From a virus: a stretch of DNA of 64,000 nt. The notes below the pieces were generated by a model, which was not told the DNA's origin, made no database searches, and saw only the letters and a list, made by a program, of their open reading frames with translations. The stretch lies in the IMG/VR virus record IMGVR_UViG_3300045988_115450, positions 32,001 to 96,000 of that record. One strand, written 5' to 3'. How positions within the stretch are numbered: position 1 is the stretch's first letter; every line of letters starts with the position of its first letter. Below are positions 8,885 to 20,653 of this stretch, one piece after another. The position numbers were made by a program, and so were the translations under genes.

Positions 8885-9133
8885 TCAAACCATTCTGATT
8901 CCCGCATATTCTTCATCAGTATATCCGCCTGGGATTCCCCATCGTGTATCTGAGTATCTGGTCATTACTCTCGTCATCGTTTTGATGAACCAAAGTGACA
9001 TATCATATTCCGCTTCTCTGGTGAATCCGTATTTCAGAAGGTACTTCCGCTCTTTAAAGTAATAAGGTATCCCAAACACGTTCCGCCACCAGTGAATACT
9101 TTCATGTTGAAAACTTTTCTTCCAATCTACCAT
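8885..9133 (-). CDS. hypothetical protein (82 aa)
   Basis: ORF track. Confidence 0.55.
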   Translation of the reverse strand: MVDWKKSFQHESIHWWRNVFGIPYYFKERKYLLKYGFTREAEYDMSLWFIKTMTRVMTRYSDTRWGIPGGYTDEEYAGIRMV

Positions 9134-9162
9134 ATAGTACCTCCAGCATAGCTGCTTTAAGA

Positions 9163-9402
9163 TTACTCATTACCCTTCTTGTCTTTCTGCTCGCCGCCAT
9201 TTTCCTTCACACAAATCGGAAGCCGCCGAACATGGTAGTCCTTTCTTTCTCTTACCACGTTATACTTCTCACAGGTGTGTGTCGGGTATGGATGAGTCCC
9301 AGGGAGTCCGTACATGGCAGCGAGAGAGCTAGAGATACCAGCTCTGTACTTAGAGAATCTACACTCATTACACAATACTGTTTTAGTTTTCATATATGAC
9401 AC
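9163..9402 (-). CDS. Cys/His-rich hypothetical protein (79 aa) immediately downstream of the RT
   Basis: CNEC...HTCEKY...C; 8-nt gap after the RT stop. Confidence 0.55.
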   Translation of the reverse strand: MSYMKTKTVLCNECRFSKYRAGISSSLAAMYGLPGTHPYPTHTCEKYNVVRERKDYHVRRLPICVKENGGEQKDKKGNE

Positions 9403-9410
9403 CTCGTCCT

Positions 9411-10577
9411 TTAGTTTTTGAGATCCTTCTTCATCGTGGCTTCAATATCAAAGCCAAACTTCTGACTATAGCGAGTGATAACTCCATCAATACTTCCTCT
9501 GTTAACCATTCGATAGTAGCTCATAAGACCGAGCACATATTGCAGTTGCTCAAGAGGCCAATAAGTTCCGCTCTTTCTGTCCTTCGCGTAATTGAAAAGC
9601 ATCGCCTCGAAGTTGCGCTTCTTCTTATACCCAATCGTGATCTGGTTGTCCTTGTTGATCATCACACCGAGTACCCAATTCTTATGATACGAGGGGCCGT
9701 AATGAGTTTTCTCATCTTTGATGAGATAACTGGCCCCGAAAAGTCTAAACAGATTTTCAATCTTTCTGATAATGAAGCTCTTATCAAACTCAATACCACA
9801 GCTGATGTTCATATCATCAGCATATCTGGTATACGCGAACCTTCTACCCTTTTCATCAGGGTTGTTTTCCGGGTTCTGCAGGCTACGCAGAAACTTACTG
9901 AACTCAAAATCAAACGGAATCATAATCAGATTGGTCAGCATCGGGCTGATCGGCGTTCCCATAGGTAGACCTCCATCCAGGAAGCAAAGCGACAGAGCTT
10001 TTCTAAGCTCTTCTCTCCCGCTTTTGCACTCCATAATGAGACAGAACGGGTAAATCATAGACAGCGCGTTCCATACAAACTCCGGAGTGGTATTAGGAAA
10101 GAAACCGCTGATGTCAGTCTTTAAATACCACTTGCTCTTATTCCACTGATGGACTTTTGCGGCGTCTACACTACTTCTGTTTTTGACATAAGCGTATGCA
10201 GCGGCATGGCTGCTCGCATAAAACTCAGATTCTAACAGCAGTTTTAGCTCTCGCAGACAATTCATCAGTTCGTCGTCCGGCGCGTTAATCTCTCTCATGC
10301 CGCCGCTCTTTTTCGGGATAAAAAACTTATGGTAATGTGTATGAAGATCGCTTTCAAGCAGTTCCTGATGCTTTTTGTTAAATGCTCTCAGTAGTTCAAT
10401 CTTTTTCCCCGTGTCAAACCCTGCCAGGATTCTCTCGGGCAGTCTCTCATATGCAACTGTTCTAGTATATAGAGATCTCGATTCCCTCACATGTTTATCT
10501 TGAAGCAGCGCAGACATAATATCCTCTAAAGAAATCTGCTTATACGGCTCTGTAATTCTTGCTGTTACATAAATCAT
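9411..10577 (-). CDS. reverse transcriptase, retron-like (388 aa, RT domain only)
   Basis: FFIPKKSGGMREINAP (RT1); SSVDAAKVH; LKTDISGFFPN (RT3); LPMGTPISPMLTNL (RT4); YTRYADDMNIS (RT5, YADD); NWVLGVMIN at the position of the retron VTG block. No accessory domains. Confidence 0.85.
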   Translation of the reverse strand: MIYVTARITEPYKQISLEDIMSALLQDKHVRESRSLYTRTVAYERLPERILAGFDTGKKIELLRAFNKKHQELLESDLHTHYHKFFIPKKSGGMREINAPDDELMNCLRELKLLLESEFYASSHAAAYAYVKNRSSVDAAKVHQWNKSKWYLKTDISGFFPNTTPEFVWNALSMIYPFCLIMECKSGREELRKALSLCFLDGGLPMGTPISPMLTNLIMIPFDFEFSKFLRSLQNPENNPDEKGRRFAYTRYADDMNISCGIEFDKSFIIRKIENLFRLFGASYLIKDEKTHYGPSYHKNWVLGVMINKDNQITIGYKKKRNFEAMLFNYAKDRKSGTYWPLEQLQYVLGLMSYYRMVNRGSIDGVITRYSQKFGFDIEATMKKDLKN

Positions 10578-10593
10578 ATTATTCTCCTTGCTT

Positions 10594-10937
10594 TTATCTG
10601 AAACTATATATGGATTTGGATGTCAGTACGAGATGCTCATCGCGGAGCTTGTCGTCGTCTGAGACGGTGAAATCCCTGACTTGGCGTTTATTGTTTGCCG
10701 GATACCCCTGCTGGTGGCGGATGTTGACCCTGTCGAACGAATATCCTTCTGGTTTTTCCTGTTGTTCGGGCGCTGCTTCTCATCAGAGAAGATGCCACCG
10801 GGGTGTTAAGCCTTCTTGGAGGGCACCAAGCATTGGTCTGCTATCGCACGCAGCGGGGTTCCTCTTTCGGACGATGTGCCACTCTTCCGTTCCGGTAAGA
10901 GTTTCTATTTTTTTAAATAGAAAGTGCTTTCAGATAT
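10594..10937 (-). ncRNA. IR-bracketed structured RNA gene, copy A (candidate retron msr-msd)
   Basis: No minus-strand ORF. The 9-bp inverted repeat TATCTGAAA (10595-10603) / TTTCAGATA (10928-10936) brackets it. In RNA sense the 5' arm is followed by G and then the hairpin TTTCTATTT-AAAAAA-ATAGAAA. The core 10604-10901 is homologous to 16549-16848. The element ends 17 nt before the RT ATG. Confidence 0.55.
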
Positions 10938-11037
10938 TTAGATTGAATTGGTTGTTAGCAGGCGTGCCATTCCCCTGCATCTCTTTAGCCATTAAGGCGC
11001 GTGGCGACACGAAATTTCCACCTCAAACAACCAATAT

Positions 11038-11706
11038 TTAATATGCTTCCATAGTAAAATCAAAGGCGTCGATCAAAACTATCTTCTTGATCGAACGCCC
11101 ATTCACAAAATTCATGAAGTTTGCTACTGCACAAGAGCAAATCATCCGCACAGAAGGAGCGATACTAAGCTCCAGGTTACATGCAGATCGAGGAGTTTCA
11201 GCCAGAGCTTCCTCTTGAGTAAACTGCATGGAGTTAATCAGATTTTCAACCATCGCACTAGAACTCCAGTCAGCCGCAAAGTGTTGCGCGTCCGTCAGCC
11301 GAAGTCTGGTATCAAACACAGCTTTGATATACGGGTTTCTAGCATTTTCTTCGCAAATTTTTCTGCGGAGATCAATGTTGTCCACCATAAGGAAGACATA
11401 GCCGGACAGACGCTGGTTGGTATACCCCTCCTGAACTACTTCAATACCATTTGCATCAGGATTGATACTCAACATCATATCTTTCACGGCTTCAGCTTTA
11501 TTTCTACCGATGTCGCTATCATTGAACATCTGATTCGCGATATTGTGCGACTCAACCTTGTCAAAATCGTACAGAGTGACCTTCTCAAGCCCAGCTCTTG
11601 CCAACAATTCGGCTACAGTGGAACCGGACGCACCACAACCGATGATATGTACTCTTTCTTTAACCTTCGTGGGATTAAAGAACTCAATACTCTTCGATAA
11701 ATTCAT
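11038..11706 (-). CDS. ThiF/MoeB-type E1-like adenylyltransferase (222 aa, minimal)
   Basis: Rossmann loop IIGCGASGSTVAELLARAGL; then LYDFDKVESHNIANQ (DxD...N..Q, with the usual Arg replaced) and LMVDNIDLRR. Confidence 0.8.
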   Translation of the reverse strand: MNLSKSIEFFNPTKVKERVHIIGCGASGSTVAELLARAGLEKVTLYDFDKVESHNIANQMFNDSDIGRNKAEAVKDMMLSINPDANGIEVVQEGYTNQRLSGYVFLMVDNIDLRRKICEENARNPYIKAVFDTRLRLTDAQHFAADWSSSAMVENLINSMQFTQEEALAETPRSACNLELSIAPSVRMICSCAVANFMNFVNGRSIKKIVLIDAFDFTMEAY

Positions 11707-11718
11707 CTTTATACCTCC

Positions 11719-11997
11719 TTATAGCATTAAACAATTCAAAAATACATCACTATCGACTTTACTTTCAATCGGCTCAAACATCCAAGAAGCCCAAGCAACA
11801 AATCTTAATTTGCCTCTTTCTTCAATGCAAATACGTTCAACTTGAATGCCGTTAATCAAGGATGTCAATGAGCGCACTGTTATGATCTTACCGCAATAGC
11901 GCGTTTTATCCCCTTCAAATATCCCGTGATCATTTTTAGAAAGAATCGCCGTTCCACTACCTGTATCTACGGAAAACAGATCAGGGTCAGACATCAT
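11719..11997 (-). CDS. NCLLL-tail family protein 5 (92 aa; tail ...FLNCLML)
   Basis: Shares only the C-terminal tail with the four upstream genes. A 16-codon out-of-frame remnant of the family N-terminus lies just upstream. Confidence 0.6.
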   Translation of the reverse strand: MMSDPDLFSVDTGSGTAILSKNDHGIFEGDKTRYCGKIITVRSLTSLINGIQVERICIEERGKLRFVAWASWMFEPIESKVDSDVFLNCLML

Positions 11998-12061
11998 GTC
12001 TTCCTAACTCCTCACCCTGACCTTCTGCCCAACATACATATCTTCAAGTTTCATACGTCAC

Positions 12062-12394
12062 CTACAACAACAAACAGTTCATAAAAACCTGCTCATCAAT
12101 AGATTGCTTTAACCGCAACACACTTTTATAGAAAGACATCTCTTTTTTGCTAACCCTTACCCTGTACCAACCGCCAAGTTCATACTCAACGATCTCGCCG
12201 CCGTCTCTTATAAACTCTCTGAGGCAAGGATCGCCCTCCGCGTACATCACATCGTCGGCGTATATAAATCTTTCGTTTGTGATGATGTCTACGCTCTGCG
12301 ACACAGCCCCATTCGGAAATACCGCCCGTAAGTTATCATTAAATTCATCCCACGTTTTTGGAATAAACTCAACCCGCTGCCCAGGTCTAAACAT
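12062..12394 (-). CDS. NCLLL-tail family protein 4 (110 aa; tail ...VFMNCLLL)
   Basis: Paralog of 12404..12745 and 12753..13082 (MFxxGQ[KR]V...WDEF...GWY.V...); conserved C-terminus. Confidence 0.7.
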   Translation of the reverse strand: MFRPGQRVEFIPKTWDEFNDNLRAVFPNGAVSQSVDIITNERFIYADDVMYAEGDPCLREFIRDGGEIVEYELGGWYRVRVSKKEMSFYKSVLRLKQSIDEQVFMNCLLL

Positions 12395-12403
12395 TATATC
12401 ACC

Positions 12404-12745
12404 TCACAATAATAAGCAATTTATGAACAATTTTTCATCAATTGACCTCATGTCTTCTTTCAGACACAACACGCTTTCGTGAAATTTCAGTTTTACTCCA
12501 TTTATATTCACCATATACCAACCAGTAGCATAGTACTTGATAATCTCACCTCCATTTATTAGAAGCTCGTTAAACCAAGAATCGCCTTCCCCATAAAGCA
12601 CCCCTGCAACCAATATCATTTCTCTATGAGTAGTTGAGAATTCATCTAATATCATATCTCTCGCAAACAACTCCATTAAAGCATCCCGAAATTCATCCCA
12701 TGACTTTGGGGCAAGCGTAACTTTCTGTCCAAGTTCAAACATCAT
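12404..12745 (-). CDS. NCLLL-tail family protein 3 (113 aa; tail ...LFINCLLL)
   Basis: Paralog set; conserved C-terminus. Confidence 0.7.
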   Translation of the reverse strand: MMFELGQKVTLAPKSWDEFRDALMELFARDMILDEFSTTHREMILVAGVLYGEGDSWFNELLINGGEIIKYYATGWYMVNINGVKLKFHESVLCLKEDMRSIDEKLFINCLLL

Positions 12746-12752
12746 ATTACCT

Positions 12753-13082
12753 CTATAGCAGCAAACAATTCATAAGTACCTCTTCGTCAACATATGCTTC
12801 TTCCATCGACCGTAGCATCGTCTCATAGAACCACGCTCTTTCTCCGCCAAAGTCTACAATGTACCAACCACACTCGAAGTCTAATTCAATCACGCCACTC
12901 ATCCTGCGTAACTTATAAAAATCGGGAGCGCTATATCCTGCTGCACTAGCTGCAAGATACCCAGTGGTATCACAGCTCGTAAACCTTTTTGCGCTGCGAG
13001 GAAGATGCTTTAGGTAAGCGCTGCAAAACTCATCCCAGCTCCTCAATGCTATCCTGACTCGTTGTCCGATCTCGAACATCAT
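12753..13082 (-). CDS. NCLLL-tail family protein 2 (109 aa; tail ...VLMNCLLL)
   Basis: Track ORF is 12753..13133. Trimmed to MMFEIGQRV... behind AGAGGAG. Confidence 0.7.
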   Translation of the reverse strand: MMFEIGQRVRIALRSWDEFCSAYLKHLPRSAKRFTSCDTTGYLAASAAGYSAPDFYKLRRMSGVIELDFECGWYIVDFGGERAWFYETMLRSMEEAYVDEEVLMNCLLL

Positions 13083-13092
13083 ATCAACTCCT

Positions 13093-13437
13093 CTATAACA
13101 GCAGGCAATCCATAAGTGTCTTTTCGTCAACACTTTTTTCTTTTAATTGACACGGCGCTGTTTCGCCCGGCCCACCCACCAAACACTCATCTCTTACTTC
13201 GCCAAAGTCAACGCGCCAAATCCAATAGTCATCCGGTTCCAGATAAATTGTCGCTCCGTATTTATCTGGAGCATTAAAATTGTCACCTTCAATCATTTCG
13301 CATCCATCATCGACGCATTCTTGAAACACTGAATGAAACCTACGTTTCACGTGTTCCACCGCACTCTCCAAATTCCAATAAACACCGGATAAATCAATAC
13401 CCTGGTCTGTTTCTGTTATCACACAATATACCTTCAT
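13093..13437 (-). CDS. NCLLL-tail family protein 1 (114 aa; tail ...TLMDCLLL)
   Basis: Track ORF is 13093..13542. Trimmed to MKVYCVITE... behind AAAGGAG. The N-domain is unrelated but the C-terminal tail is the same. Confidence 0.65.
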   Translation of the reverse strand: MKVYCVITETDQGIDLSGVYWNLESAVEHVKRRFHSVFQECVDDGCEMIEGDNFNAPDKYGATIYLEPDDYWIWRVDFGEVRDECLVGGPGETAPCQLKEKSVDEKTLMDCLLL

Positions 13438-13611
13438 ACCGGTCTTCTCCTTTCTTATGTACCTCTGAACAGCTAACCAGCTGTTTAAGTTCAAAAGTTT
13501 TCTGCTCTGGGAGTAGGAAAACTTTTGAAGCGACACAGCCATTTGTTACTCCCTCGTTCCGACAAGAGTGATATGTAATTTAACATATCTGTACAGGCAC
13601 ATATGTTTTTT

Positions 13612-14298
13612 TTACTTAATTAACATCTTACCGTCACGCCAATCGGGCCGCTCATCAATAATTTTATCTGCGTCCTCCATGAATTCTTCAAGCTCAACCG
13701 CGGCGTTCATAATCCACTCGATGCCATCCTGTACATCACGCACGTCCACCTTCTCAAACCGGTCAATGTTATCGAAAAACCATCTGCACAAATCATATAC
13801 AGCGGGGTTCCATCGTTCCACTGCGAGTTCCACATTGTCGCTTTCGTATAGGATGCCTTCTCTAACATCATAAACCTGTGAAGATATGTAGCCTTTCTTA
13901 TTGAAAATCTGAAAGACGTAGAAATCATCAACGTCTGTCAGCAAATCTGCTCTATACTTTATATCCGTAGAAGATGGACTGACACCCATGTTCACATGAG
14001 AATGCCCGTACAACCGAACCTTATTGAATATCTCCGTGTTAAGAGAATCCTGCCAGTTCACATAGTCCGCATCTTCAGGTTCGGTGCTTGCCGACGTGAC
14101 CTTCTGAGGGAATACCAAGACGTCCTCCACGATAAACTCAGCTGGATTTTCCAACCTTCTTACAACTCCGTGCCATCCAACCTCCAGATTCCTATTCATA
14201 ACAAGCAAACACGTCTTCATCCATGCCTTCTTACTGTATACGATTTTGCACGGATTTGTCGCGGCCAACAAATCCGTTGCATTAGTTGCCTTATTCAT
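13612..14298 (-). CDS. JAB/MPN (JAMM) metallopeptidase (228 aa)
   Basis: Complete JAMM signature: upstream Glu (LEVGWHG) plus HSHVNMGVSPSSTD (HxHx7SxxD). Confidence 0.8.
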   Translation of the reverse strand: MNKATNATDLLAATNPCKIVYSKKAWMKTCLLVMNRNLEVGWHGVVRRLENPAEFIVEDVLVFPQKVTSASTEPEDADYVNWQDSLNTEIFNKVRLYGHSHVNMGVSPSSTDIKYRADLLTDVDDFYVFQIFNKKGYISSQVYDVREGILYESDNVELAVERWNPAVYDLCRWFFDNIDRFEKVDVRDVQDGIEWIMNAAVELEEFMEDADKIIDERPDWRDGKMLIK

Positions 14299-15706
14299 TG
14301 CTCTTATTCTCCTTTATCCATTTAATTGCGTCGATGTAATTAACTACTCGCCCATCCGGCAACTCCAATACTACAGCGCCTTTTCTCAACAACTCTTCAA
14401 GGAATGATCTCAATACGACAGTATCACTAAGATTCAGATTCCCGCTTTCGGCGCACGTCGTGTCTACCGTATAAACGTAGTCACATTTGTCGCAAGATTT
14501 CTCTAGCGCCTGTTGCCAGCTCCCCATGCAACCATATTTATCAAGGTGTGTGTTGGGGAGATAGCTGTTGTATTCACAGCCATACCCATATGCCTTGATG
14601 GGTAGTACCATTCCTCCGAAAGAAAGTCTCCATGCGGAACACATTCTTACTTTGATATTAGAGTCAATGAAAATCCCTGTCATTAACTTTTTAGTATCAC
14701 TTTCTGTCAGGCCCACATACGAAGACCGCGTATAAAAAATCGACGACCGATTGTTGATGTACTCTCTCGCAATCTCTGGATCAAACAGTGTCATATAACC
14801 AGTTACAACATATACGATATTCCCATCTTTGTCACCGCTCTCAACGGACACATTTTTGTTCGACAAAAAATAATCCATTAACTCGTTCTTGCTTTCAACA
14901 TTACTGTTGTCAATTGCTTCCACCAACAAAGACCAACCTTCGTATTCTCTATACCAATCTCTCAAATCGGACATCAATTTATTGATCTGACTTCTTGCAC
15001 TCTCCATCTTCTTTGCGTATCTTTCCCTCTGTACGTTCCTTAGCTTTCCCTCATAGCCATAAAGGTAATATCTCTTTTTAGCTGAGGCCACGTCCACAGC
15101 AGCGGCAACCATATCGTTCATCGCTTTACAGATTACACTCATGCCGGAGTCTTCTTTAGACAGAATCTTAATAAACTTTGACTCCGCTTCAGTCCTGTCT
15201 TTAATGTACCATGGGCAGAATACATTGAAAAGACACACTAGGTAATGCCACGAGCCATAGTTATCCACGTTGGTAAGGACAACCGTACTCTTCCTCTCTT
15301 CATTACTGAAAATTCTCAGTATGATACCGAGTCGTTCTTTCATTAGATTCAGCTCTCTTGCCGTCTTCTCTTTCCAACTGCTCGCACATTTCATATTACT
15401 GACTAAAGTTTCTACGGCCTTAACCTTATCACACACGCAAAATGTAATCGTGTTGTCTTGAGAAGTTACCTCCGAAAAACGCTCTTTGTCTTTTATCCAC
15501 GTAATCCAATCAGCACAATTAGGATCTACCACTCTAACCATGATACGCACGTCCGCCGGAACTCTTGGCTTCAAAAACAACCGAGCCATTGCCAACGCAA
15601 AGTCATCGCCTTTGAACGTCCCGTCACCAGCAATATTAGAAAACTCAGACTCCAGCTCTGGGGCCAGCACTAAAACTTCACTGCGTTTCAAACAATTTGA
15701 AAACAT
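14291..15706 (-). CDS. hypothetical 471-aa protein with a Cys-rich C-terminal domain
   Basis: Track ORF is 14291..15772. Trimmed to MFSNCLKR... behind AAAGGAG. The C-terminal LPNTHLDKYGCMGSW loosely resembles an E2 HPN...C motif. Overlaps the JAB gene start by 8 nt. Confidence 0.65.
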   Translation of the reverse strand: MFSNCLKRSEVLVLAPELESEFSNIAGDGTFKGDDFALAMARLFLKPRVPADVRIMVRVVDPNCADWITWIKDKERFSEVTSQDNTITFCVCDKVKAVETLVSNMKCASSWKEKTARELNLMKERLGIILRIFSNEERKSTVVLTNVDNYGSWHYLVCLFNVFCPWYIKDRTEAESKFIKILSKEDSGMSVICKAMNDMVAAAVDVASAKKRYYLYGYEGKLRNVQRERYAKKMESARSQINKLMSDLRDWYREYEGWSLLVEAIDNSNVESKNELMDYFLSNKNVSVESGDKDGNIVYVVTGYMTLFDPEIAREYINNRSSIFYTRSSYVGLTESDTKKLMTGIFIDSNIKVRMCSAWRLSFGGMVLPIKAYGYGCEYNSYLPNTHLDKYGCMGSWQQALEKSCDKCDYVYTVDTTCAESGNLNLSDTVVLRSFLEELLRKGAVVLELPDGRVVNYIDAIKWIKENKSNE

Positions 15707-15788
15707 ATATCTTCTCCTTTCTTTATGAACTCTTGGCAGGCCATCCGACGTAACCGAATGCCCTCCCAGCAACTCACTGTGTTATGTA

Positions 15789-15814
15789 CGAGGCCGGACA
15801 ATGTCCGGCCTCGT
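15789..15814 (-). promoter_or_regulatory. 11-bp GC-rich stem-loop between the 79-aa gene and the 471-aa gene
   Basis: CGAGGCCGGAC-aatg-GTCCGGCCTCG; no U-tract, so a possible attenuator or processing site. Confidence 0.4.
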
Positions 15815-15832
15815 AGATTGTGCTAACTCAAA

Positions 15833-16072
15833 TCAGATCGCGTTACCTTGCGCCTTAACAATAGCACTCAGAGTACAAATACCAGCGGCACCAAGTTCGG
15901 CAAAAGTGCAATCCATATCATCAGGCGTCAGAATCGTGCCGGAAAGAGAATTGACGCTACGGCTGCACTCAATTCCGATCTTCTCGAACAGAGAACGAGG
16001 GGTCTCTACATGTTCATCTACGGCCTGGCTATCAAAACGGCGGGTGGTACTTCTAACATTCACAATAATCAT
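15833..16072 (-). CDS. small ubiquitin-like candidate (79 aa; Gly76 followed by NAI)
   Basis: MIIVNVRS... beta-strand start as in ThiS/MoaD; ends ...AIVKAQG-NAI. Size and context (E1 plus JAB) are the basis, not homology. Confidence 0.5.
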   Translation of the reverse strand: MIIVNVRSTTRRFDSQAVDEHVETPRSLFEKIGIECSRSVNSLSGTILTPDDMDCTFAELGAAGICTLSAIVKAQGNAI

Positions 16073-16113
16073 AATATACTTCCTTTCTGTTATTACATCT
16101 ATGCTTATTTGTT

Positions 16114-16503
16114 TTAGCCAGCTACTACGATCTTGGAACTGACCCGTGCCATCATAACGTCGATCTCTTCCAGCGCTTCGCGCACCTGGGCTTCAATCTT
16201 TTCTACCTTCTCGATAACAGAAGCATATCTCTCGGCAACAACCTCACGTACGGAACGGTCAGCTTCGGTAATAAGACTCACAGTTACGACCGCACGACCA
16301 GAGCCATCACAAGACTCAGCCTCATAGATAATACCGGTCGGTGCTACTACGCCTCTCTCGCCAGCGAGAGTGTAAAACAGTGCGTTGCCATCTTCGTCCA
16401 GCAGTTGCACAGACTTAGGCCGGTACAGAGCTGCGCGATTGATTTCTTCAAGAGTGAAAGCACTCTTGAGTGTTACTGCGTTACCACACACAATAATTTC
16501 CAT
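16114..16503 (-). CDS. hypothetical protein (129 aa) ending ...KIVVAG
   Basis: MEIIVCGNAVTLKSAFTLEEI resembles the ThiS/MoaD N-terminus; C-terminal Gly; first gene after ncRNA copy B. Confidence 0.55.
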   Translation of the reverse strand: MEIIVCGNAVTLKSAFTLEEINRAALYRPKSVQLLDEDGNALFYTLAGERGVVAPTGIIYEAESCDGSGRAVVTVSLITEADRSVREVVAERYASVIEKVEKIEAQVREALEEIDVMMARVSSKIVVAG

Positions 16504-16536
16504 ATTCTTCTCCTTTTCATATGTCTAATTATGTAT

Positions 16537-16883
16537 TATAAAGTGATTCTATATATGGAATGATAGACCTAACCCGTGCGTTAGTACGCTGACGGGCTTG
16601 GTTATCTGAGGTACTGTGTGATCGACGTCGCTCCAACTCCGCATCGCTTTGGCGTTTGATGCCTTACGCTGTAACGGTGGTAGGCAAGTTGTGCGGCTTT
16701 CTTTATATGCTTCGCTTAGTAATCTTAGCCTTCTTGTCGCATCCATGACGCCGAGAGGTTTCTGGTCGAGAGCCATCGAGGTTGGTGCAACCTTTGCGAT
16801 GCTTCCCACACCTTCGGACGATATGTTACTCTCCCATTCTGGCAAGAGCCTCTGTGAATTTCAGAGTTTGCAATCACTTTATA
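16537..16883 (-). ncRNA. IR-bracketed structured RNA gene, copy B (paralog of 10594..10937)
   Basis: A 12-bp perfect inverted repeat, TATAAAGTGATT (16537-16548) / AATCACTTTATA (16872-16883), brackets it. In RNA sense the 5' arm is followed by G and then the hairpin CTCTG-aaattca-CAGAG. The core 16549-16848 shares CTATATATGGA, TTGGCGTTT, AGCCTTCTTG and TTCGGACGATxTGxxACTCTxCC with copy A, at similar offsets. Confidence 0.55.
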
Positions 16884-16944
16884 AATACATTTCTAATACG
16901 GTTAAAAAAATCAGATAAAAGAATTATTTGGACTAAATGCTCAC

Positions 16945-17799
16945 TTAGTTTTCCTGCTGTCCACTCCAAACAACCAGACAATCAGGATTGGGGACACCTC
17001 TGGTTTCCTTACCATCTAGCCATCTAGCCAGTACATAAGAGGTCGTCAAGAACACACGGTGGCGGTAATGCTTGCACCGGCCATCAATAGCAGAATCCTT
17101 AATCCAATCTCTCAAGCGGACAATCTGCCTATCCAAACTAGACTCAGCATAACCAGTCTGAAGAACATTCCAGAAATATTCGAGCCTAACATCGCTCGCC
17201 CCGGCTTCTTTCGCCAGATACATGGCAGCTGTGATCGGAGCCGTGCCAAGCTTTCTCTGTCTCACCTTCAAGAAACTATTAACCCAGGAGAATTCAGCGA
17301 TGTGCTTCGAAATCATGTCCGCTCTCTTAGCTTCATTCTCCAAGTGCCTCGCACTAAATTCATTCAGCACCATGCAGATTGCAACCGAGCGCTTGTAAGA
17401 AGAAATCTTTCCTCTGTTTCCGCCCTCGGCCATACACAAAGCGTCGGCTTCACTTCTCGCCCTACCCCGGTCAATGTACGGACTGCGTTCCATATTGAAC
17501 AGGAAGAACATCTTTACTGTCTTACCGCAGCGCTTCACCGCTTCGAGCCGGTGATGCCCGTCAATAAGAACACCAGCCTTATCAAACATAATAAAGCCGG
17601 TCGGAGTATTTTCATCCCATGTGCCATTCATCATATGGGACTTGTACTTATTCACAGTGCTCTTACTGATCGGACGATTGCCGCCGGACATAGCCAACAA
17701 ACCCGTCGCCATTTCCGGAGACACGTAAGCATACGCCAACTGTCCACCGTTCCGTTCTTCTAGCAACAAGTTGCTCAACAATTCTTCATAAGCTGTCAT
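16945..17799 (-). CDS. ParB/Srx-fold nuclease-like protein (284 aa)
   Basis: VLIDGHHRLEAV (the ParB N-terminal domain DGxHR motif). Track ORF is 16945..17859. Trimmed to MTAYEELL... behind AGGAGG, because the long form would run into the tRNA. Confidence 0.7.
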   Translation of the reverse strand: MTAYEELLSNLLLEERNGGQLAYAYVSPEMATGLLAMSGGNRPISKSTVNKYKSHMMNGTWDENTPTGFIMFDKAGVLIDGHHRLEAVKRCGKTVKMFFLFNMERSPYIDRGRARSEADALCMAEGGNRGKISSYKRSVAICMVLNEFSARHLENEAKRADMISKHIAEFSWVNSFLKVRQRKLGTAPITAAMYLAKEAGASDVRLEYFWNVLQTGYAESSLDRQIVRLRDWIKDSAIDGRCKHYRHRVFLTTSYVLARWLDGKETRGVPNPDCLVVWSGQQEN

Positions 17800-17825
17800 T
17801 TGTATGTACCTCCTAAAAATTTTGC

Positions 17826-17902
17826 TGGTGGTTCCTGCCCGGCTCGAACGGGCGACCATCCAGTTATGAGCTGGACGCGCTAACCAACTGCGCTAAGGAA
17901 CC
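17826..17902 (-). tRNA. trnM-CAU: tRNA-Met or Ile2 (anticodon CAU), 77 nt, CCA encoded
   Basis: Reverse complement folds as GGTTCCT-TA-GCGC-AGTTGGTTA-GCGC-G-TCCAG-CTCATAA-CTGGA-TGGTC-GCCCG-TTCGAGC-CGGGC-AGGAACC-A-CCA. Confidence 0.9.
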
Positions 17903-17978
17903 AGGTACGTTTAAAGCCGCTGAATTTATCAGCGGCTTTAAACTGTTAATGAAAGCAAGTGTCCGTATAAAACGAACG

Positions 17979-18053
17979 TGGCAGCGCCGGACTGAGATCG
18001 AACAGTCTTCCACGGAGTCAAAGTCCGTTGCATTACCGTTATGCTACGGCGCT
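17979..18053 (-). tRNA. trnQ-UUG: tRNA-Gln (UUG), 75 nt, CCA encoded
   Basis: AGCGCCG-TA-GCAT-AACGGTA-ATGC-A-ACGGA-CTTTGAC-TCCGT-GGAA-GACTG-TTCGATC-CAGTC-CGGCGCT-G-CCA. Confidence 0.85.
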
Positions 18054-18164
18054 ATATAAATCAAGCAGAGCAGAGCAGAGTTTAAAGCCATTCCAGGCTA
18101 TGTAAAGAAAGGAGGTGGTTTATCAACAATAACAGGTAGGAGAATCATTTTCTGTTGCTTGATA

Positions 18165-18239
18165 TGGGGTAGGCGACGAGTGCCGATCTCGCGTTTCCGG
18201 TTTGGAAGACCGGTGTTCTAGCCGTTGAACTACGCCTAC
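18165..18239 (-). tRNA. trnG-UCC: tRNA-Gly (UCC), 75 nt, CCA encoded
   Basis: GTAGGCG/CGCCTAC acceptor stem; CCGGT-CTTCCAA-ACCGG anticodon arm; unusual T-loop ATCGGCA. Confidence 0.8.
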
Positions 18240-18269
18240 ATTTTTGCGGTTCCGCAAACCGCATTTTTT

Positions 18270-18899
18270 TTAATTCATATATAAATCATAATAACTTTGT
18301 TTTCTTCTTGGTTTCAAATCTGGATTTTTTAAACGCCTTTTGATGAACTCAACTGTATTATCCAGCCCATAGTTCCTGACGTATGTATTGATCCTGTTTG
18401 CTCCCAAACCTAAAGTTTTAGCCCAGTCCTTCCCAGTATGTATCGTTCCGTCAACATCAATAAGCGAAGTTGTAGACTTGTATTTCGAATTATCTGCCAA
18501 TGTTACCCATCTGCAATTATCAGGAGAATAATCCCCGTCCCAATCAATTCTATCAATAGTCAAACCATCATCGTACCCGTTAGTTAATGACCAACTCTCA
18601 AATAATTCTGGATTGCGCATCCAATCATCACAAACCTTAACACCCTTAGCGCCATACCATCTGTAGCTCTTATTACTCTTATCATAGCACCTAGCTTTCA
18701 TATCGCTAAAAATTCTCCGGAGCTTGTCGTCACTCCATGAAGCATCATAATTTATATAACCCCCGCTTCTTCCGATATGTCTACAAGCTTTCGCCTGCTC
18801 AATATGCCTTTTCTGTTTGTTCGTTTCAAACCCACACTCAGCACATCTCACATGGTATAATCTATGCCCGTCCCTATGCCTGAAATCACACTCATACAA
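18270..18899 (-). CDS. HNH_3-like homing endonuclease with C-terminal HTH (209 aa)
   Basis: N-terminal CAEC...C..H zinc finger. TIDRIDWDGDYSPDNCRWVTLADNSK resembles DHIDG...NLRWVT..EN, but the first His is Arg. C-terminal WAKTLGLGANRINTYVRNYG. Confidence 0.6.
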   Translation of the reverse strand: MYECDFRHRDGHRLYHVRCAECGFETNKQKRHIEQAKACRHIGRSGGYINYDASWSDDKLRRIFSDMKARCYDKSNKSYRWYGAKGVKVCDDWMRNPELFESWSLTNGYDDGLTIDRIDWDGDYSPDNCRWVTLADNSKYKSTTSLIDVDGTIHTGKDWAKTLGLGANRINTYVRNYGLDNTVEFIKRRLKNPDLKPRRKQSYYDLYMN

Positions 18900-19047
18900 G
18901 ACATCGAAAATACCTATCCTAGTACCAACAATATTCTCTTTTTCCAGAATATCACCATCTTTCTGCGTGTTGCTAAATAATAATCCGATGAGAGTGCTGC
19001 CCTCTCGCCTGCGTTGTTCACTGTACTACTGTTATACTAATCGGATG

Positions 19048-19128
19048 TACGGGCGACAAGATTTGAACTTGCAAGCCTTACGGCACCGGGGCCTAAACCC
19101 GGCGTGTATACCGTTCCACCACGCCCGC
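19048..19128 (-). tRNA. trnL-UAG: tRNA-Leu (UAG), type II, ~81 nt, no encoded CCA
   Basis: GCGGGCG acceptor stem; CCGGG-TTTAGGC-CCCGG anticodon arm; long variable arm; T-arm GCAAG-TTCAAAT-CTTGT. Confidence 0.8.
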
Positions 19129-19210
19129 ATGGCACCACTAAGTCATGGTCGGCTGCGCATTTATCCTTTTTTGAATCGTGGTAGATGATTTTGCTTCGTA
19201 CAACCACGCA

Positions 19211-19285
19211 TGGACTGAGTGGAGAATTTTGAAATCTCGACCTCTGGTTCCCAAAACCAGCGTTCTGCCTCTGAACTACACCCAG
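19211..19285 (-). tRNA. trnP-UGG: tRNA-Pro (UGG), 75 nt, CCA encoded
   Basis: CTGGT-TTTGGGA-ACCAG anticodon arm; T-arm GAGAT-TTCAAAA-TTCTC. Confidence 0.8.
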
Positions 19286-19288
19286 ATA

Positions 19289-19363
19289 TGGAGGCCGATG
19301 CGAGTTCGAACTCAGCGTCTGTGGGTTACAAAGCCACTGTTTTACCACTTAAACTAATCGGCC
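19289..19363 (-). tRNA. trnT-UGU: tRNA-Thr (UGU), 75 nt, CCA encoded
   Basis: GGCCGAT/ATCGGCC acceptor stem; anticodon loop TTTGTAA with a C31-C39 mismatch; T-loop TTCGAAC. Confidence 0.75.
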
Positions 19364-19513
19364 ACGCACCCCGTTTTGCGGGGTGGCTATGTAAGGGAAT
19401 CAAAAAGGGGAACTCCTGTCTCTTCCAGGATGCCAACACACTACTACGGACTGCCAGAGGCAAACCGCCACTTTTCAGGTGTCATAGTCCGCAAACTATG
19501 GGCTTTTCTTTAG

Positions 19514-19595
19514 TGCGGGATAAGAGACTTGAACTCTTACGTCTATCGACATCGAGACTTAAACACGAGGTGTCTACCGATTCCACCAATCCCGC
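19514..19595 (-). tRNA. trnL-UAA: tRNA-Leu (UAA), type II, ~82 nt, no encoded CCA
   Basis: GCGGGAT/ATCCCGC acceptor stem; loop TTTAAGT; long variable arm TGTCGATAGACGT; T-arm AAGAG-TTCAAGT-CTCTT. Confidence 0.8.
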
Positions 19596-19602
19596 ATATT
19601 GA

Positions 19603-19940
19603 ACTTGCTACAACCCAGCCTGGTGGTTGACCCGTGGGCGTTGATAACTGACCCAAACCATTAACCCAGGATTTTGTAAAACTTTAACCGTTAACCTTTG
19701 ATTCTTGAACTTTAATCTTCTGAAGATCTTTGAGCCTTGAATTTTGAAATTTTAACTTTGAAGTTTGAGCTTTACAGCAACATTTCTTCTATAAGAAATT
19801 AGATTAACAGTCCAATCTTTTTGTAAGCGCAAAATTTCAAGTTTTGCTTTGTAGTTGGCACATATTTGTTCATTTTTACATCGAACCAAGTGCCGTCAGC
19901 ACGATGGGTTACCGTTTTAGGTTTTCGGGTTGCAGCAAGT
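19603..19940 (-). other. IR-bracketed ~340-bp ORF-free element with short-period repeats
   Basis: ACTTGCTACAACCC (19603-19616) versus GGGTTGCAGCAAGT (19927-19940), matching at 13/14. Interior has AACTTTAA / CTTTGA / GGTTAAYGGTT repeats and several local hairpins. Confidence 0.4.
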
Positions 19941-19948
19941 TGCTTATT

Positions 19949-20602
19949 TTAGTATTCTACGGTGATTGTAGTGGTCGCATTGGACACAGATAGCTGAGAA
20001 TCTACATCCGCAGTAAACGTGTCAATCCAATCGCTCAAAACCTTGATTTCATTACCAATGTCAAGCGGATCAACGAGTTCATACGTATTGTTGGCAATAT
20101 ACTCTTCTCTCAACCGCTTAACGACCTCAGAATCCTTGGTTGTCTTGGCCTCTTTAGGCTGGCACTGGAGGAAATTCATGATATACTGTTCAGCTTTCGC
20201 TTCAATCCACTCGCCTTCATGTTTGGAAACCTCAGCACGGGCTCTTTCGTACTGCCGGACCATTACATCAAGCAAATCTTTCTTAGCCATGATTCCATGG
20301 CTTTTCATTTCGATGGCTTCGGCTACGGTGTAAGGTTCGCCGCCAATTACCACCGGGGTTTTGGCATTGGAGAGCACAACTGCTCTCTTAATAGCCGTCC
20401 GACGAGCAATCAAGTCCGTAACAGACTGATAATCAGACTTCATATCCTTCTTGAGGGTTTCGACCAGCACACCGCCGATCTTTTTGTCGCTCACTTTCTT
20501 ACTGGCAACGAAGGTTTTACCAGAAGTAGCATTGAAAATTCTAGCGTCCAAAATTTTCAGCTCTGCAAGAGCTTTATGGACGGTCATAGTTTCTTTGTTC
20601 AT
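19949..20602 (-). CDS. hypothetical protein (217 aa) embedded in the tRNA island
   Basis: ORF track; plus-strand ORFs 20019..20333 and 20219..20635 are shadows. Confidence 0.65.
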   Translation of the reverse strand: MNKETMTVHKALAELKILDARIFNATSGKTFVASKKVSDKKIGGVLVETLKKDMKSDYQSVTDLIARRTAIKRAVVLSNAKTPVVIGGEPYTVAEAIEMKSHGIMAKKDLLDVMVRQYERARAEVSKHEGEWIEAKAEQYIMNFLQCQPKEAKTTKDSEVVKRLREEYIANNTYELVDPLDIGNEIKVLSDWIDTFTADVDSQLSVSNATTTITVEY

Positions 20603-20653
20603 ATTAGTTCCTCACTTTCTTATTTATGGAATTAGATTTTTATCGTGGTATCG

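What the first reader, a model, noticed from the sequence alone, without database searches (positions are those of the whole stretch)
9411..17799. Composite locus: a retron-type RT and two paralogous RNA genes bracket an E1/JAB/ubiquitin-like cassette with five tail-tagged proteins
All elements lie on the minus strand with short gaps. In transcription order they are:
- ParB-like nuclease
- RNA copy B
- 129-aa protein ending in AG
- 79-aa ubiquitin-sized protein
- 471-aa Cys-rich protein
- JAMM peptidase
- five proteins with the same C-terminal tail
- minimal ThiF-type E1
- RNA copy A
- RT

The two RNA genes are ~300-nt homologs sitting at the two ends of the protein cassette. The RT follows directly behind copy A. 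I know of no described retron, DRT or Abi system whose accessory genes are an E1-like adenylase plus a JAB peptidase. I also know of no ubiquitin-like (Bil, CBASS Cap2/3, PRTRC) system that carries an RT and dedicated structured RNAs. Being phage-borne, it could be an anti-defence or superinfection module rather than a host defence. Physical linkage is observed. Functional linkage is inference.
Basis: partly seen in the sequence, partly recalled or inferred. Interest (0 to 1): 0.9.

Follow-up and report, generated by a model that had tools for sequence, protein, structure and literature searches.

The report
Retron fused to ubiquitin-like conjugation cassette
A gut-bacterial phage carries a conserved gene cassette, not found in the literature I could search, in which a retron-type reverse transcriptase and three retron-type RNAs are interleaved with a ubiquitin-like protein, its activating enzyme and its protease, joining two kinds of microbial conflict machinery never seen together.

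Summary
All listed minus-strand genes exist at 9411-17799.

- **Proteins:** The RT scores best against retron RT profiles. The E1 is a ThiF-type adenylase. The JAB has an invariant JAMM motif. The 79-aa protein is a SAMP-like Ubl with a conserved ...KADNA end and optional 1-4 extra residues.
- **RNAs:** The two "RNA genes" are retron-type ncRNAs (a1/a2 terminal inverted repeats, a G right after a1, two covarying hairpins). A third copy sits between the JAB and the tail proteins. A skipping-rope RNA precedes copy A.
- **Linkage:** The order p129-Ubl-p471-JAB-(small genes)-E1-ncRNA-RT recurs in all 19 related loci that extend far enough. RT identity runs from 42 to 97%. The loci are Clostridia phages, prophages and MAGs. 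The marker p471 has about 1,200 cluster representatives. The adjacency is therefore a conserved system, not a one-off mosaic.
- **Gaps:** No E2 was found. p129 and p471 match nothing known.
- **Precedent:** None of the 13 published retron types and no paper in the searched library describes this combination.
- **Best reading:** A new retron variant whose effector arm is an E2-less Ubl pathway, probably a phage or prophage conflict module. msDNA synthesis, conjugation targets and biological role are inferred.

The parts
16945..17799 (-). ParB-like protein (285 aa from the ATG at 17799). A neighbour in this clade, not a core part of the system.
   Evidence: phrog_5931 at 9e-33 (unknown function). 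Weak ParB-like PHROG match, 1.4e-3. DGHHR motif present. No Pfam or PDB hit. Present upstream in L001, L003, L006 and L011. Absent in L004, L012, L013 and the genome loci.
16536..16884 (-). Retron-type ncRNA copy B. a1 16884-16872, G 16871, hairpin 2 16848-16829, a2 16548-16536.
   Evidence: Covariance model R1 scores 74.3 bits. A 13-nt a1/a2 complement. Fold z = -3.7.
16114..16503 (-). p129, a conserved core protein of unknown fold.
   Evidence: Homologues sit at the same position in all related loci. No Pfam, NCBIfam, PADLOC or PDB match. Not related to the Ubl.
15833..16072 (-). Ubiquitin-like protein (79 aa). It ends ...KAQGNA-I.
   Evidence: The family profile matches SAMP2 5lda_B at E 5.4e-4 and PF1061 1rws at 2.7e-3. 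The C-terminus ...KADNA is conserved, with 0-4 extra residues. L011 has ...GDGG-SI.
14291..15706 (-). p471, a conserved core protein. It has an N-terminal alpha/beta domain, a long helix, and a C-terminal domain carrying an invariant PNxH(x5)C motif.
   Evidence: Alignments. AF2 full-length pLDDT 84. C-terminal domain pLDDT 90.6, pTM 0.85. No PDB fold match. One uncharacterised phage homologue in BFVD. 1,207 cluster representatives at E<=1e-3.
13612..14298 (-). JAB/JAMM metallopeptidase (228 aa).
   Evidence: Invariant E39 and H99-S-H101-x7-S109-x2-D112 across six homologues. Weak matches to PADLOC JAB (0.035) and Rpn11 (0.08).
13456..13603 (-). Retron-type ncRNA copy C, compact at 148 nt. a1 13603-13595, G 13594, hairpin 2 13569-13548, 13-bp hairpin, a2 13464-13456.
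   Evidence: R1 scores 33.8 bits, E 2e-5. Fold z = -5.2. Orthologues in L001, L003 and L006 show compensatory a1/a2 changes. L006 has a different 15-bp perfect hairpin at the same place.
13093..13437 (-). Tail protein T1 (114 aa from Met36). Weak DUF7336 match. Ends MDCLLL.
12753..13082 (-). Tail protein T2 (109 aa). Ends MNCLLL.
12404..12745 (-). Tail protein T3 (113 aa). Ends INCLLL.
12062..12394 (-). Tail protein T4 (110 aa). Ends MNCLLL.
11719..12054 (-). Tail protein T5. The gene is interrupted by an in-frame TAG at 12004-12006. The 92-aa ORF from 11997 ends LNCLML.
   Evidence: The intact 111-aa orthologue is in L006.
11038..11706 (-). Minimal ThiF/MoeB-type E1 adenylase (222 aa) with a conserved Cys176 in an (S/G)AC motif.
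   Evidence: Pfam ThiF 5e-24. NCBIfam ThiF 3e-20, 6A-MBL Cap2 1e-19, SAMP E1 7e-10. PADLOC E1-E2 models match the E1 part only. Cys checked.
10951..11031 (-). Skipping-rope RNA (Rfam RF02924), directly 5' of ncRNA copy A.
   Evidence: 50.3 bits against a gathering score of 36.7. Present in L001. Reduced to its outer stem in L003 and L006.
10595..10936 (-). Retron-type ncRNA copy A. a1 10936-10928, G 10927, hairpin 2 10901-10882, a2 10603-10595. It ends 17 nt before the RT start codon.
   Evidence: R1 scores 80.3 bits. a1/a2 TATCTGAAA/TTTCAGATA. Fold z = -3.4.
9411..10577 (-). Retron-type reverse transcriptase (388 aa, YADD at residue 252).
   Evidence: RVT_1 2.5e-13. retron_St85_RT 1e-47, below its curated cut-off. 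All top PADLOC hits are retron RT types, best RT_II-A at 5e-41. Some homologues are named 'retron-type reverse transcriptase' by JGI.
9163..9402 (-). 79-aa CxxC (zinc-ribbon-like) protein directly after the RT. Possibly part of the unit.
   Evidence: Conserved in L006. CxxC proteins occupy the same position in L004 and L011.

Best explanation
**What it is.** This is one conserved genetic system, not a chance neighbourhood. It is a retron-family element whose accessory arm is an E2-less ubiquitin-like (Ubl) conjugation pathway. It sits in the accessory region of a roughly 107-kb phage of gut Clostridia that is probably temperate.

**Shown here:**
- A retron-clade RT.
- Three RNAs in the window with retron ncRNA anatomy. 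Each has terminal a1/a2 inverted repeats with element-specific sequences, a G directly after a1, two covarying hairpins, a variable body and, in copy C, a long perfect hairpin.
- A ThiF-type E1 with a conserved Cys.
- A JAMM peptidase with a complete motif.
- A SAMP-like Ubl whose conserved ...KADNA end is followed by 0-4 variable residues.
- Two further invariant partners of unknown fold, p129 and p471.
- Strict synteny of all of these in 19 of 19 informative loci.

**Inferred mechanism:**
1. The cassette is transcribed as one unit.
2. The RT recognises the conserved hairpin 2 of each ncRNA.
3. The RT primes from the 2'-OH of the G next to a1 and makes one msDNA per ncRNA.
4. The JAB trims the Ubl precursor to ...NA (here it removes the final Ile).
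5. The E1 adenylates that carboxylate, possibly forming a thioester on Cys176.
6. The Ubl is passed on without a canonical E2, either directly or through the invariant Cys393 of p471, to a protein target.
7. The JAB also reverses conjugation.
8. By analogy with known retrons, the RT-msDNA complex is the sensor or regulator and the Ubl arm with p129 and p471 is the response.

**Tail proteins.** In other clades their tails read F-x-x-M-[IL]-G plus a variable extension. They are either further E1/JAB substrates or adaptors.

**Most likely role.** Inter-phage or phage-host conflict, either superinfection exclusion or abortive defence for the lysogen.
For: **Domain calls**
- RT.
- E1.
- JAMM motif invariant across six homologues.
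- Ubl profile against SAMP2, E 5.4e-4.
- Ubl C-termini ...KADNA, with extensions A, NVK, GNDV, I or AF, and GG-SI in L011.

**Synteny**
- Via the RT: L001, L003, L004 and L010-L013.
- Via p471: L006, L008, L009 and nine of the genome-contig loci.
- L021 has an ncRNA hit at the contig end where the RT would follow.
- No RT-less or E1-less locus was seen.

**RNA**
- Cognate a1/a2 complements average 9.2 nt; non-cognate pairs average 6.5 nt (sd 1.1).
- Complements of at least 9 nt occur in 61% of cognate pairs and 4.6% of non-cognate pairs. Mann-Whitney p = 1e-8.
- A G directly follows a1 in 14 of the 16 elements whose a1 could be placed; in one more a U intervenes and in one a longer interrupted a1 stem ends before a G.
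- For hairpins 1 and 2, 94.9% of cells are paired against 68.8% in shuffles.
- 11 of 14 pairs carry compensatory changes. The covariation score is 0.744, against 0.255 for shuffles and at most 0.147 for slid controls.
- Copy C folds at z = -5.2, and its long hairpin is kept in L006 with a different sequence.
- RNA copies are interleaved with the Ubl genes at conserved positions: before p129, after the JAB, and before the RT.

**Family size and carriers**
- 1,207 representatives of p471 at E<=1e-3.
- Phage context.
- Clostridia MAGs, including a 359-kb contig.
Against: - No experiment shows msDNA, Ubl processing or conjugation.
- The RT scores below NCBIfam's curated cut-off for its nearest retron family (162.9 against 235 bits).
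- The retron signatures I recall, NAxxH and VTG, appear only as AAKVH and VLG (read from the sequence).
- Several ncRNAs per RT is unprecedented for retrons as far as I know. Some copies lie outside the cassette, upstream of unrelated small genes. That also fits a leader-RNA role.
- Copies A and B, at about 345 nt, are longer than classical retron ncRNAs and lack an obvious single msd hairpin.
- No E2 was found by Pfam, PADLOC or NCBIfam. A confident model of the p471 C-terminal domain matches no UBC fold.
- The Ubl ends in Asn-Ala, not Gly-Gly.
- In the window's clade the tail proteins have Leu where other clades have the conserved Gly.
- p129 and p471 have no known fold or function, so the effector step is a guess.
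Confidence: 0.6

Rival explanations
1. It is the same conserved system, but it serves the phage as counter-defence rather than as defence for a lysogen. For example, the msDNAs could act as decoys or sponges for host nucleic-acid-sensing immunity. The JAB, E1 and Ubl could undo or hijack host Bil or CBASS-type conjugation.
For: - The system sits on phage genomes, among accessory genes typical of counter-defence: RtcB tRNA ligase, many tRNAs, and Macro, Fic, RNA ligase, ArdA in relatives.
- The ncRNA bodies are swapped even between near-identical phages. Copy B of the window has no match in L001 or L003. That suggests arms-race turnover.
Against: - The cassette encodes its own complete activation arm (E1 plus Ubl precursor), which a simple deconjugation strategy does not need.
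- L012 lies in a bacterial contig beside WYL, AAA and resolvase genes, which resembles a defence island.
- An integrase-like gene and a 359-kb MAG contig suggest lysogeny, where prophage-borne defence is common.
Confidence: 0.22
2. The repeated RNA modules are cis-acting leaders of the downstream genes (antitermination, processing or translational control). They are not RT templates. At most the copy next to the RT is a true retron ncRNA.
For: - Every copy is in sense orientation and ends just before an RBS and start codon.
- There are several copies per genome, some outside the cassette, in front of small tail-family genes.
- No separate promoters or terminators stand out.
Against: - All copies, not only the RT-proximal one, share the three retron hallmarks: the a1/a2 stem, a G after a1, and the conserved hairpin 2.
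- A copy lies directly upstream of the RT in most loci examined (not in L009, where a 262-aa gene intervenes and none was found; L025-L027 gave no R1 hit).
- The family was found only in RT-bearing loci. A pattern scan of IMG/VR returned only the three known RT-carrying phages.
Confidence: 0.12
3. Two independent systems, a stand-alone retron and a stand-alone Ubl operon, merely travel together in a phage accessory island without functional coupling.
For: - Defence and accessory genes cluster in islands.
- Retron (msr-msd)-RT cassettes are known to exchange effector modules (PMC7736814).
- The number of small genes between the JAB, E1 and RT varies: zero to five in most loci, and about 5.7 kb of small genes in L021.
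Against: - The order is identical in 19 of 19 informative loci, across 42-97% RT identity and 21-94% p471 identity.
- ncRNA copies sit inside the Ubl gene block.
- No locus was seen with one half only.
Confidence: 0.05
4. The RT and the two repeats form a diversity-generating retroelement (template and variable repeat), or the RT belongs to a group II intron.
For: One RT with two related repeats about 6 kb apart superficially resembles a TR/VR pair. The group II RT/maturase profile scores 1.5e-18.
Against: - Both repeats are non-coding.
- They share only a 70-nt structured module, not a TR/VR-type alignment with adenine-specific differences.
- Retron profiles score far better (1e-47).
- No Rfam group II intron match was found.
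Confidence: 0.01

Closest known systems
Retrons (types I-XIII of Mestre et al. 2020, PMC7736814; nearest RT profiles are type II-A / St85 and type I-A)
   Same: - An RT of the retron clade.
- An ncRNA directly upstream on the same strand, with a1/a2 inverted repeats, a G after a1 and stem-loops.
- Accessory genes in the same operon.
- Carriage on prophages, which is common for retrons.
   Different: - The accessory module is an E1/JAB/Ubl pathway plus two unknown proteins. None of the 13 published types has this.
- There are three ncRNAs in the window, and up to four or more in relatives, for one RT.
- Copies A and B are about 345 nt.
- The RT scores below the curated family cut-offs, and its signature motifs are divergent.
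- The hosts are gut Clostridia phages.
Bil (BilABCD) and type II CBASS Cap2/Cap3 bacterial ubiquitin-like conjugation systems
   Same: - A ThiF-type E1 whose adenylation domain matches Cap2-type models.
- A JAB peptidase.
- A small beta-grasp modifier, or a C-terminal tail, that is probably trimmed and activated.
- A conflict-system context.
   Different: - No E2 domain is detectable.
- The E1 is a minimal 222-aa protein, not an E1-E2 fusion.
- The Ubl ends in Asn-Ala.
- The system is coupled to an RT and structured RNAs.
- No Bil or CBASS family model reaches significance for the other proteins.
Archaeal SAMP / UbaA / JAMM1 sampylation (E2-independent Ubl conjugation)
   Same: - A MoeB/ThiF-type E1, a JAMM protease and a small beta-grasp protein, with no E2.
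- The Ubl family profile's best solved relative is SAMP2.
   Different: - The C-terminus is not diglycine, except in L011.
- The system is phage-borne and linked to an RT.
- A role in sulfur transfer is unlikely in this context, though not excluded.
PRTRC (ParB-related, ThiF-related cassette)
   Same: A ParB-like gene, a ThiF-type E1, a JAB and a Ubl-sized protein in one neighbourhood.
   Different: - Only the ThiF model matches, and weakly (35 bits against a cut-off of 145).
- No PRTRC A-F model matches.
- The ParB-like gene is absent from most related loci.
Skipping-rope RNA (Rfam RF02924; Weinberg et al. 2017, PMC5737381)
   Same: The element at 10951-11031 passes the Rfam gathering score. 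It is an orphan structured RNA reported to associate with particular nearby protein genes.
   Different: Here it lies directly 5' of a retron-type ncRNA. It is dispensable, since L003 and L006 have lost it. Its relation to the RT is unknown.

Membership tests
Retron | The RT belongs to the retron clade of prokaryotic RTs. | tested here: met
   All of the best-scoring profiles are retron RTs: NCBIfam retron_St85_RT 1e-47, and PADLOC RT_II-A 5e-41, RT_I-A 1e-38 and RT_III-A 4.5e-35. The score is below the curated cut-off of the nearest family (162.9 against 235 bits), so this is a new subclade.
Retron | An ncRNA gene lies directly upstream of the RT on the same strand. | tested here: met
   Copy A ends 17 nt before the RT start codon. 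The same holds in L001, L003, L004, L006, L008, L010-L013, L015, L016, L022, L023 and L024. Exception: L009, where a 262-aa gene separates E1 from the RT and no ncRNA was found.
Retron | Terminal inverted repeats a1/a2 enclose the ncRNA. | tested here: met
   The repeat sequences are specific to each element. Cognate complements average 9.2 nt and non-cognate ones 6.5 nt, p = 1e-8. Compensatory changes occur between orthologues of copy C.
Retron | A conserved guanosine lies immediately 3' of a1 (the branch or priming G). | tested here: met
   A G directly follows a1 in 14 of the 16 elements whose a1 could be placed, including window copies A (10927), B (16871) and C (13594); one further element has a U in between and one has a longer interrupted a1 stem before its G. 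Whether this G primes synthesis is not testable here.
Retron | An msd region forms a stable hairpin that templates the msDNA. | tested here: inconclusive
   Copy C has a 13-bp perfect hairpin, replaced by a different 15-bp hairpin in L006. Copies A and B have branched variable bodies of about 250 nt with no single dominant hairpin.
Retron | Retron-specific RT signatures NAxxH and VTG (recalled from the literature). | tested here: inconclusive
   The corresponding positions read A-A-K-V-H (residues 139-143) and V-L-G (residue 302). The His and Gly are kept. The Asn and Thr are not.
Retron | Production of branched multicopy single-stranded DNA. | not testable with these tools
   Needs nucleic-acid extraction and sequencing from cells that express the cassette.
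Bil / type II CBASS-like bacterial ubiquitination | An E1 adenylation domain. | tested here: met
   Pfam ThiF 5e-24. PADLOC E1-E2 models reach 3e-17, over the E1 part only. NCBIfam 6A-MBL Cap2 1e-19.
Bil / type II CBASS-like bacterial ubiquitination | An E2 (UBC-fold) domain with a catalytic Cys. | tested here: not met
   No E2 hit in Pfam, NCBIfam or PADLOC for any gene. The p471 C-terminal domain, which carries an HPN-like PNxH..C motif, was modelled at pLDDT 90.6 and matches no UBC structure. The best PDB E-value is 0.18.
Bil / type II CBASS-like bacterial ubiquitination | A JAB/JAMM peptidase. | tested here: met
   The E...HxHx7Sx2D motif is invariant. Profile matches are weak.
Bil / type II CBASS-like bacterial ubiquitination | A beta-grasp Ubl with an exposed or processable small C-terminal residue. 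| tested here: met
   SAMP2 match at E 5.4e-4. Conserved ...KADNA end with 0-4 extra residues, and GG-SI in L011. The fold was not modelled.
PRTRC system | Matches to the PRTRC ParB, ThiF and A-F protein models. | tested here: not met
   Only PRTRC_ThiF matched, at 35.4 bits against a cut-off of 144.75. No other PRTRC model matched.
Diversity-generating retroelement | A template repeat and a variable repeat inside a target ORF that differ at adenines, with a DGR-type RT. | tested here: not met
   The repeats are non-coding and align only over a structured 70-nt module. The RT scores best as a retron RT.
Skipping-rope RNA (RF02924) | A score above the Rfam gathering threshold. | tested here: met
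   50.3 bits against 36.7, over the full-length model 1-80.

The most novel reading that the evidence does not exclude
One reverse transcriptase services several distinct retron-type RNAs that are interleaved with an E2-less ubiquitin-like pathway. The resulting msDNA-RT complexes directly gate or guide covalent protein tagging. The tagged material could be the Ubl itself, or the small proteins with the F-x-x-M-[IL]-G/NCLLL tail, attached to phage or host targets or to the retron complex itself. That would be a nucleic-acid-programmed protein-conjugation system and a new retron class found mainly in gut Clostridia phages.
Probability: 0.3. Interest if true: 0.92.

Novelty: new variant of a known kind. 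Interest (0 to 1): 0.82.

Why it matters
Retrons and bacterial ubiquitin-like conjugation (Bil, CBASS Cap2/Cap3) are two of the most active topics in phage-bacteria conflict. They have been treated as unrelated.

- **A strict link.** An evolutionarily conserved link between them would define a new retron type with a multi-protein enzymatic effector arm.
- **A second anomaly.** Several template RNAs for one RT has not been reported for retrons as far as I know.
- **Scale.** The marker protein has about 1,200 cluster representatives, mostly in gut Firmicutes phages and prophages, an under-explored reservoir.
- **A tractable question.** It gives a way to ask how a reverse-transcribed DNA can control protein conjugation.
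- **Tools.** It may supply compact RT/ncRNA pairs for DNA-writing applications.
- **An orphan RNA.** It gives the skipping-rope RNA a concrete genomic partner.

Tried and rejected
1. **E2 reading of p471.** The invariant PNxH(x5)C near the C-terminus looked like the HPN...Cys of UBC enzymes. The full-length model and a confident domain model match no UBC fold in the PDB. I dropped it as a fold claim. A functional acceptor Cys remains possible.
2. **p129 as a second Ubl.** Profile-profile comparison with the Ubl family found nothing, probability 0.5%.
3. **DGR and group II intron readings.** Rejected.
4. **PRTRC membership.** Rejected.
5. **First a1/a2 statistic.** The version that allowed G-U pairs did not separate cognate from non-cognate pairs. 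The Watson-Crick-only version did.
6. **Promoter and terminator scan of 9000-18200.** Counts were no higher than in shuffles.
7. **Targets of the variable RNA bodies.** A short-word BLAST search against all held loci found only orthologous ncRNAs.
8. **Megablast of the region against 50,697 phage records.** No match.
9. **ParB-like gene.** Pfam and PDB profile searches found nothing.
10. **Word-indexed search with p471.** It gave only 22 clusters and made the family look rare. The exhaustive HMMER search corrected this to about 1,200 representatives.
11. **Exact-pattern scan of IMG/VR for hairpin 2.** It returned only the three phages already known.
12. **Supplement of Weinberg 2017 on skipping-rope gene associations.** It is not held.

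Full report
**Observation**

The window is part of a tailed-phage genome of about 107 kb.
- Large terminase lies at 45201-46976 and portal at 46983-48482.
- There is an RtcB ligase, an integrase-like gene and nine tRNA genes.
- Identical or near-identical proteins occur on metagenomic contigs of 104-109 kb, one labelled Caudoviricetes sp..

Profile searches gave these results.
- **RT:** It matches RVT_1. All of its best matches are retron RT models: NCBIfam retron_St85_RT at 1e-47, which is below that family's cut-off, and PADLOC RT_II-A at 5e-41.
- **E1:** The 222-aa protein is a ThiF-family adenylase, Pfam 5e-24. PADLOC E1-E2 models match only its E1 part.
- **JAB:** Profile matches are weak. 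An alignment of six homologues shows an invariant Glu and an invariant HSHVxMxxxPSxxD, which is the JAMM motif.
- **Ubl:** The 79-aa family profile finds SAMP2 (5lda_B, E 5.4e-4) and PF1061.
- **p129 and p471:** They match nothing in Pfam, NCBIfam, PADLOC, PHROGs or PDB sequences.
- **ParB-like gene:** The label rests on a DGHHR motif and one weak PHROG match.

**The RNAs**

The two intergenic regions align only over a 5' module, their extreme ends and the RBS. Reading them with relatives shows a common plan:
1. A 5' segment, a1.
2. A G.
3. Hairpin 1.
4. A conserved hairpin 2, CUxUUGCCGGAACGGxAxAG, followed by UAxCAY.
5. A U-poor variable body of 100-300 nt.
6. A 3' segment, a2, complementary to a1.
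7. The RBS of the next gene.

From my knowledge of the field, this is the anatomy of a retron msr-msd RNA. In retrons the a1/a2 stem positions a guanosine whose 2'-OH primes cDNA synthesis.

I built a covariance model of the two-hairpin module. It recovers both copies and finds a third in the window at 13523-13616, between the JAB and the first tail protein. It also finds several copies per relative: four in L011, at least four in L010, three in L008 and two in L004.

On 26 aligned copies:
- 94.9% of cells pair, against 68.8% in shuffles.
- 11 of 14 pairs show compensatory changes.
- The covariation score is 0.744, against 0.255 for shuffles and at most 0.147 for slid controls.
- One caveat applies. 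The alignment was fitted to the model, which leans it towards the structure.

The a1/a2 sequences differ from element to element but match within each element.
- Watson-Crick complements average 9.2 nt for cognate ends and 6.5 nt for non-cognate ends.
- Complements of at least 9 nt occur in 61% of cognate pairs and 4.6% of non-cognate pairs, p = 1e-8.
- An earlier version that allowed G-U pairs was uninformative.

Copy C (13456-13603, fold z = -5.2) is the size of a classical retron RNA and contains a 13-bp perfect hairpin. Its L006 orthologue keeps a hairpin of entirely different sequence and has compensatory a1/a2 changes.

The first 80 nt of region A are a separate element, the Rfam skipping-rope RNA, at 50.3 bits. 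It is an orphan motif with a reported but unexplained association with nearby protein genes (PMC5737381). It is missing from L003 and L006.

**Linkage**

*Starting from the RT:*
- Three IMG/VR phages and a 44%-identical relative carry the same gene order.
- Four further RT homologues at 46-59% identity do too: L010, L011, L013, and L012 from a Clostridia MAG with WYL, AAA and resolvase neighbours.
- All four show a protein of about 130 aa, then about 79 aa, about 470-500 aa, about 257-355 aa, ThiF, an intergenic region and the RT.

*Starting from p471:*
- L006, L008 and L009 give the same result.
- So do 14 loci from the species-representative genome collection.
- Those loci are mostly Ruminococcus, Eubacteriales, Acutalibacteraceae, Lachnospiraceae, Oscillospiraceae and Roseburia MAGs. 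One lies on a 359-kb contig.

Nineteen of the 19 loci that extend far enough have all six proteins in the same order. The remaining loci stop at a contig end. In L021 an ncRNA hit sits at that end. ncRNA copies occupy conserved positions inside the protein block.

The word-indexed search made p471 look rare, with 22 clusters. The exhaustive search finds 1,207 representatives at E<=1e-3 and 293 at E<=1e-30, nearly all 460-510 aa long.

**The Ubl arm**

- The Ubl C-terminus is ...VVKADNA in most loci.
- It carries extensions A (L015), NVK (L016), GNDV (L012), AF (L006) or I (window...KAQGNA-I). In L011 it reads ...KGDGG-SI.
- A conserved end followed by variable extra residues is the pattern of Ubl precursors that a protease trims before activation. 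That last statement is inference from established Ubl biology.
- The E1 keeps a Cys in an (S/G)AC motif in all homologues I read.
- No E2 exists. The PNxH(x5)C motif of p471 suggested one, but a confident model of that domain (pLDDT 90.6, pTM 0.85) has no UBC-like or other PDB match.
- The full-length model matches only an uncharacterised phage protein.
- The pathway therefore resembles E2-independent systems such as archaeal sampylation more than it resembles Bil or Cap2.

**The tail proteins**

- The five genes are paralogues of a small-protein family with an N-terminal GQ[KR]VR[IV]R.W[DE][DE][MF] segment.
- Their shared tail, [VI]D[ES]xx[LF]x[NDS]CL[LM]L, is specific to the window's clade.
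- In other clades the same position reads F-D-x-x-x-F-x-x-M-[IL]-G followed by 0-11 variable residues: MLGI, MLGTKLEV, MIGVKLRGGV, MIGVAHR, MIGVK, MIGGE, MLILG.
- Near-identical orthologues differ only after the Gly.
- This again looks like a processing or activation site, so these proteins may be additional E1/JAB substrates, as CD-NTase tails are for Cap2/Cap3. That is inference. In the window the Gly is replaced by Leu, which weakens the idea here.
- The number of these genes varies, and they also occur outside the cassette, often just downstream of an ncRNA copy.
- T5 of the window carries an in-frame TAG.

**Interpretation**

The evidence supports a single conserved system that joins a retron module (one RT, several ncRNAs) to an E2-less Ubl pathway and two unknown core proteins. 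The mechanism I give is built by analogy with characterised retrons, Bil, CBASS and SAMP systems. In it the RT makes msDNAs from each ncRNA. The JAB matures the Ubl and the E1 activates it. The msDNA-RT complex senses or gates, and the Ubl arm with p129 and p471 executes. None of these steps is demonstrated.

Defence of a lysogen seems somewhat more likely than counter-defence. L012 sits in a defence-island-like context, and there are signs of lysogeny. The phage setting and the rapid swapping of ncRNA bodies keep the counter-defence reading alive. A leader-RNA role for the extra copies cannot be excluded.

**Novelty**

- Mestre et al. (PMC7736814) define 13 retron types, and none involves ubiquitin, E1 or JAB.
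- Full-text searches found no description. I combined retron with ThiF, JAB, ubiquitin-like, msDNA, adenylyltransferase, phage-encoded and type XIV.
- PADLOC 2023 and NCBIfam 2026 have no models for the specific proteins.
- The library lacks most subscription-journal papers, so prior description cannot be ruled out.
- I class this as a new variant of a known kind: a retron with an unprecedented effector arm and several template RNAs.

Noticed in passing
window 10951-11031 (-): A skipping-rope RNA (Rfam RF02924, 50.3 bits) lies directly 5' of retron-type ncRNA copy A. It is present in L001. In L003 and L006 it is reduced to its outer stem. Its function is unknown in the literature.
   Followed up: partly
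window 28028-28105 (-): A Pistol self-cleaving ribozyme (RF02679, 63.9 bits) lies in the phage genome outside the finding.
   Followed up: no
window 12004-12006 (-), within 11719-12054: Tail-protein gene T5 carries an in-frame TAG where the L006 orthologue has Trp (VRNWEDM). It may be a pseudogene, a sequencing error or a reinitiated product. No suppressor tRNA is among the nine phage tRNAs.
   Followed up: partly
window 9163-9402 (-): A 79-aa CxxC (zinc-ribbon-like) protein starts 8 nt after the RT stop codon. It is conserved in L006. Other CxxC proteins occupy the same position in L004 and L011. It may belong to the system.
   Followed up: partly
window 17826-21100 (-) and 4420-5667 (-): A cluster of nine tRNA genes starts immediately upstream of the ParB-like gene. 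An RtcB tRNA ligase lies 4 kb downstream of the RT. Relatives carry RNA ligase, PIN, PemK, Macro, Fic and ArdA genes nearby, which suggests a conflict-gene neighbourhood.
   Followed up: no
L002 1-284; window 16545-16805 compared with L001 3656-4126 and L003 4376-4792: The variable bodies of the ncRNAs turn over by replacement. Copy B of the window has no detectable similarity to copy B of phages whose flanking proteins are 90-100% identical. L002's copy A has a hairpin (CTTCTCTGATGAGAAACAGCC) in triplicate where the window has one.
   Followed up: partly
L010 9175-9266 and 16947-17043; L004 12484-12567; L008 6142-6229 and 7082-7168: Further retron-type ncRNA copies, each with its own a1/a2 pair, lie outside the core cassette. 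They are usually just upstream of small genes of the tail-protein family.
   Followed up: partly
L009 4578-4825 and 8216-9004: In this distant relative, two tRNA-like genes sit between the Ubl and the p471 homologue. A 262-aa gene separates E1 from the RT. No ncRNA was found next to the RT before the contig ends.
   Followed up: no
window 10559-11041 (+) and 16549-16845 (-): Mechanical ORFs of 160 and 98 aa overlap ncRNA copies A and B. The regions diverge by indels among close relatives, so these ORFs are almost certainly not genes.
   Followed up: partly
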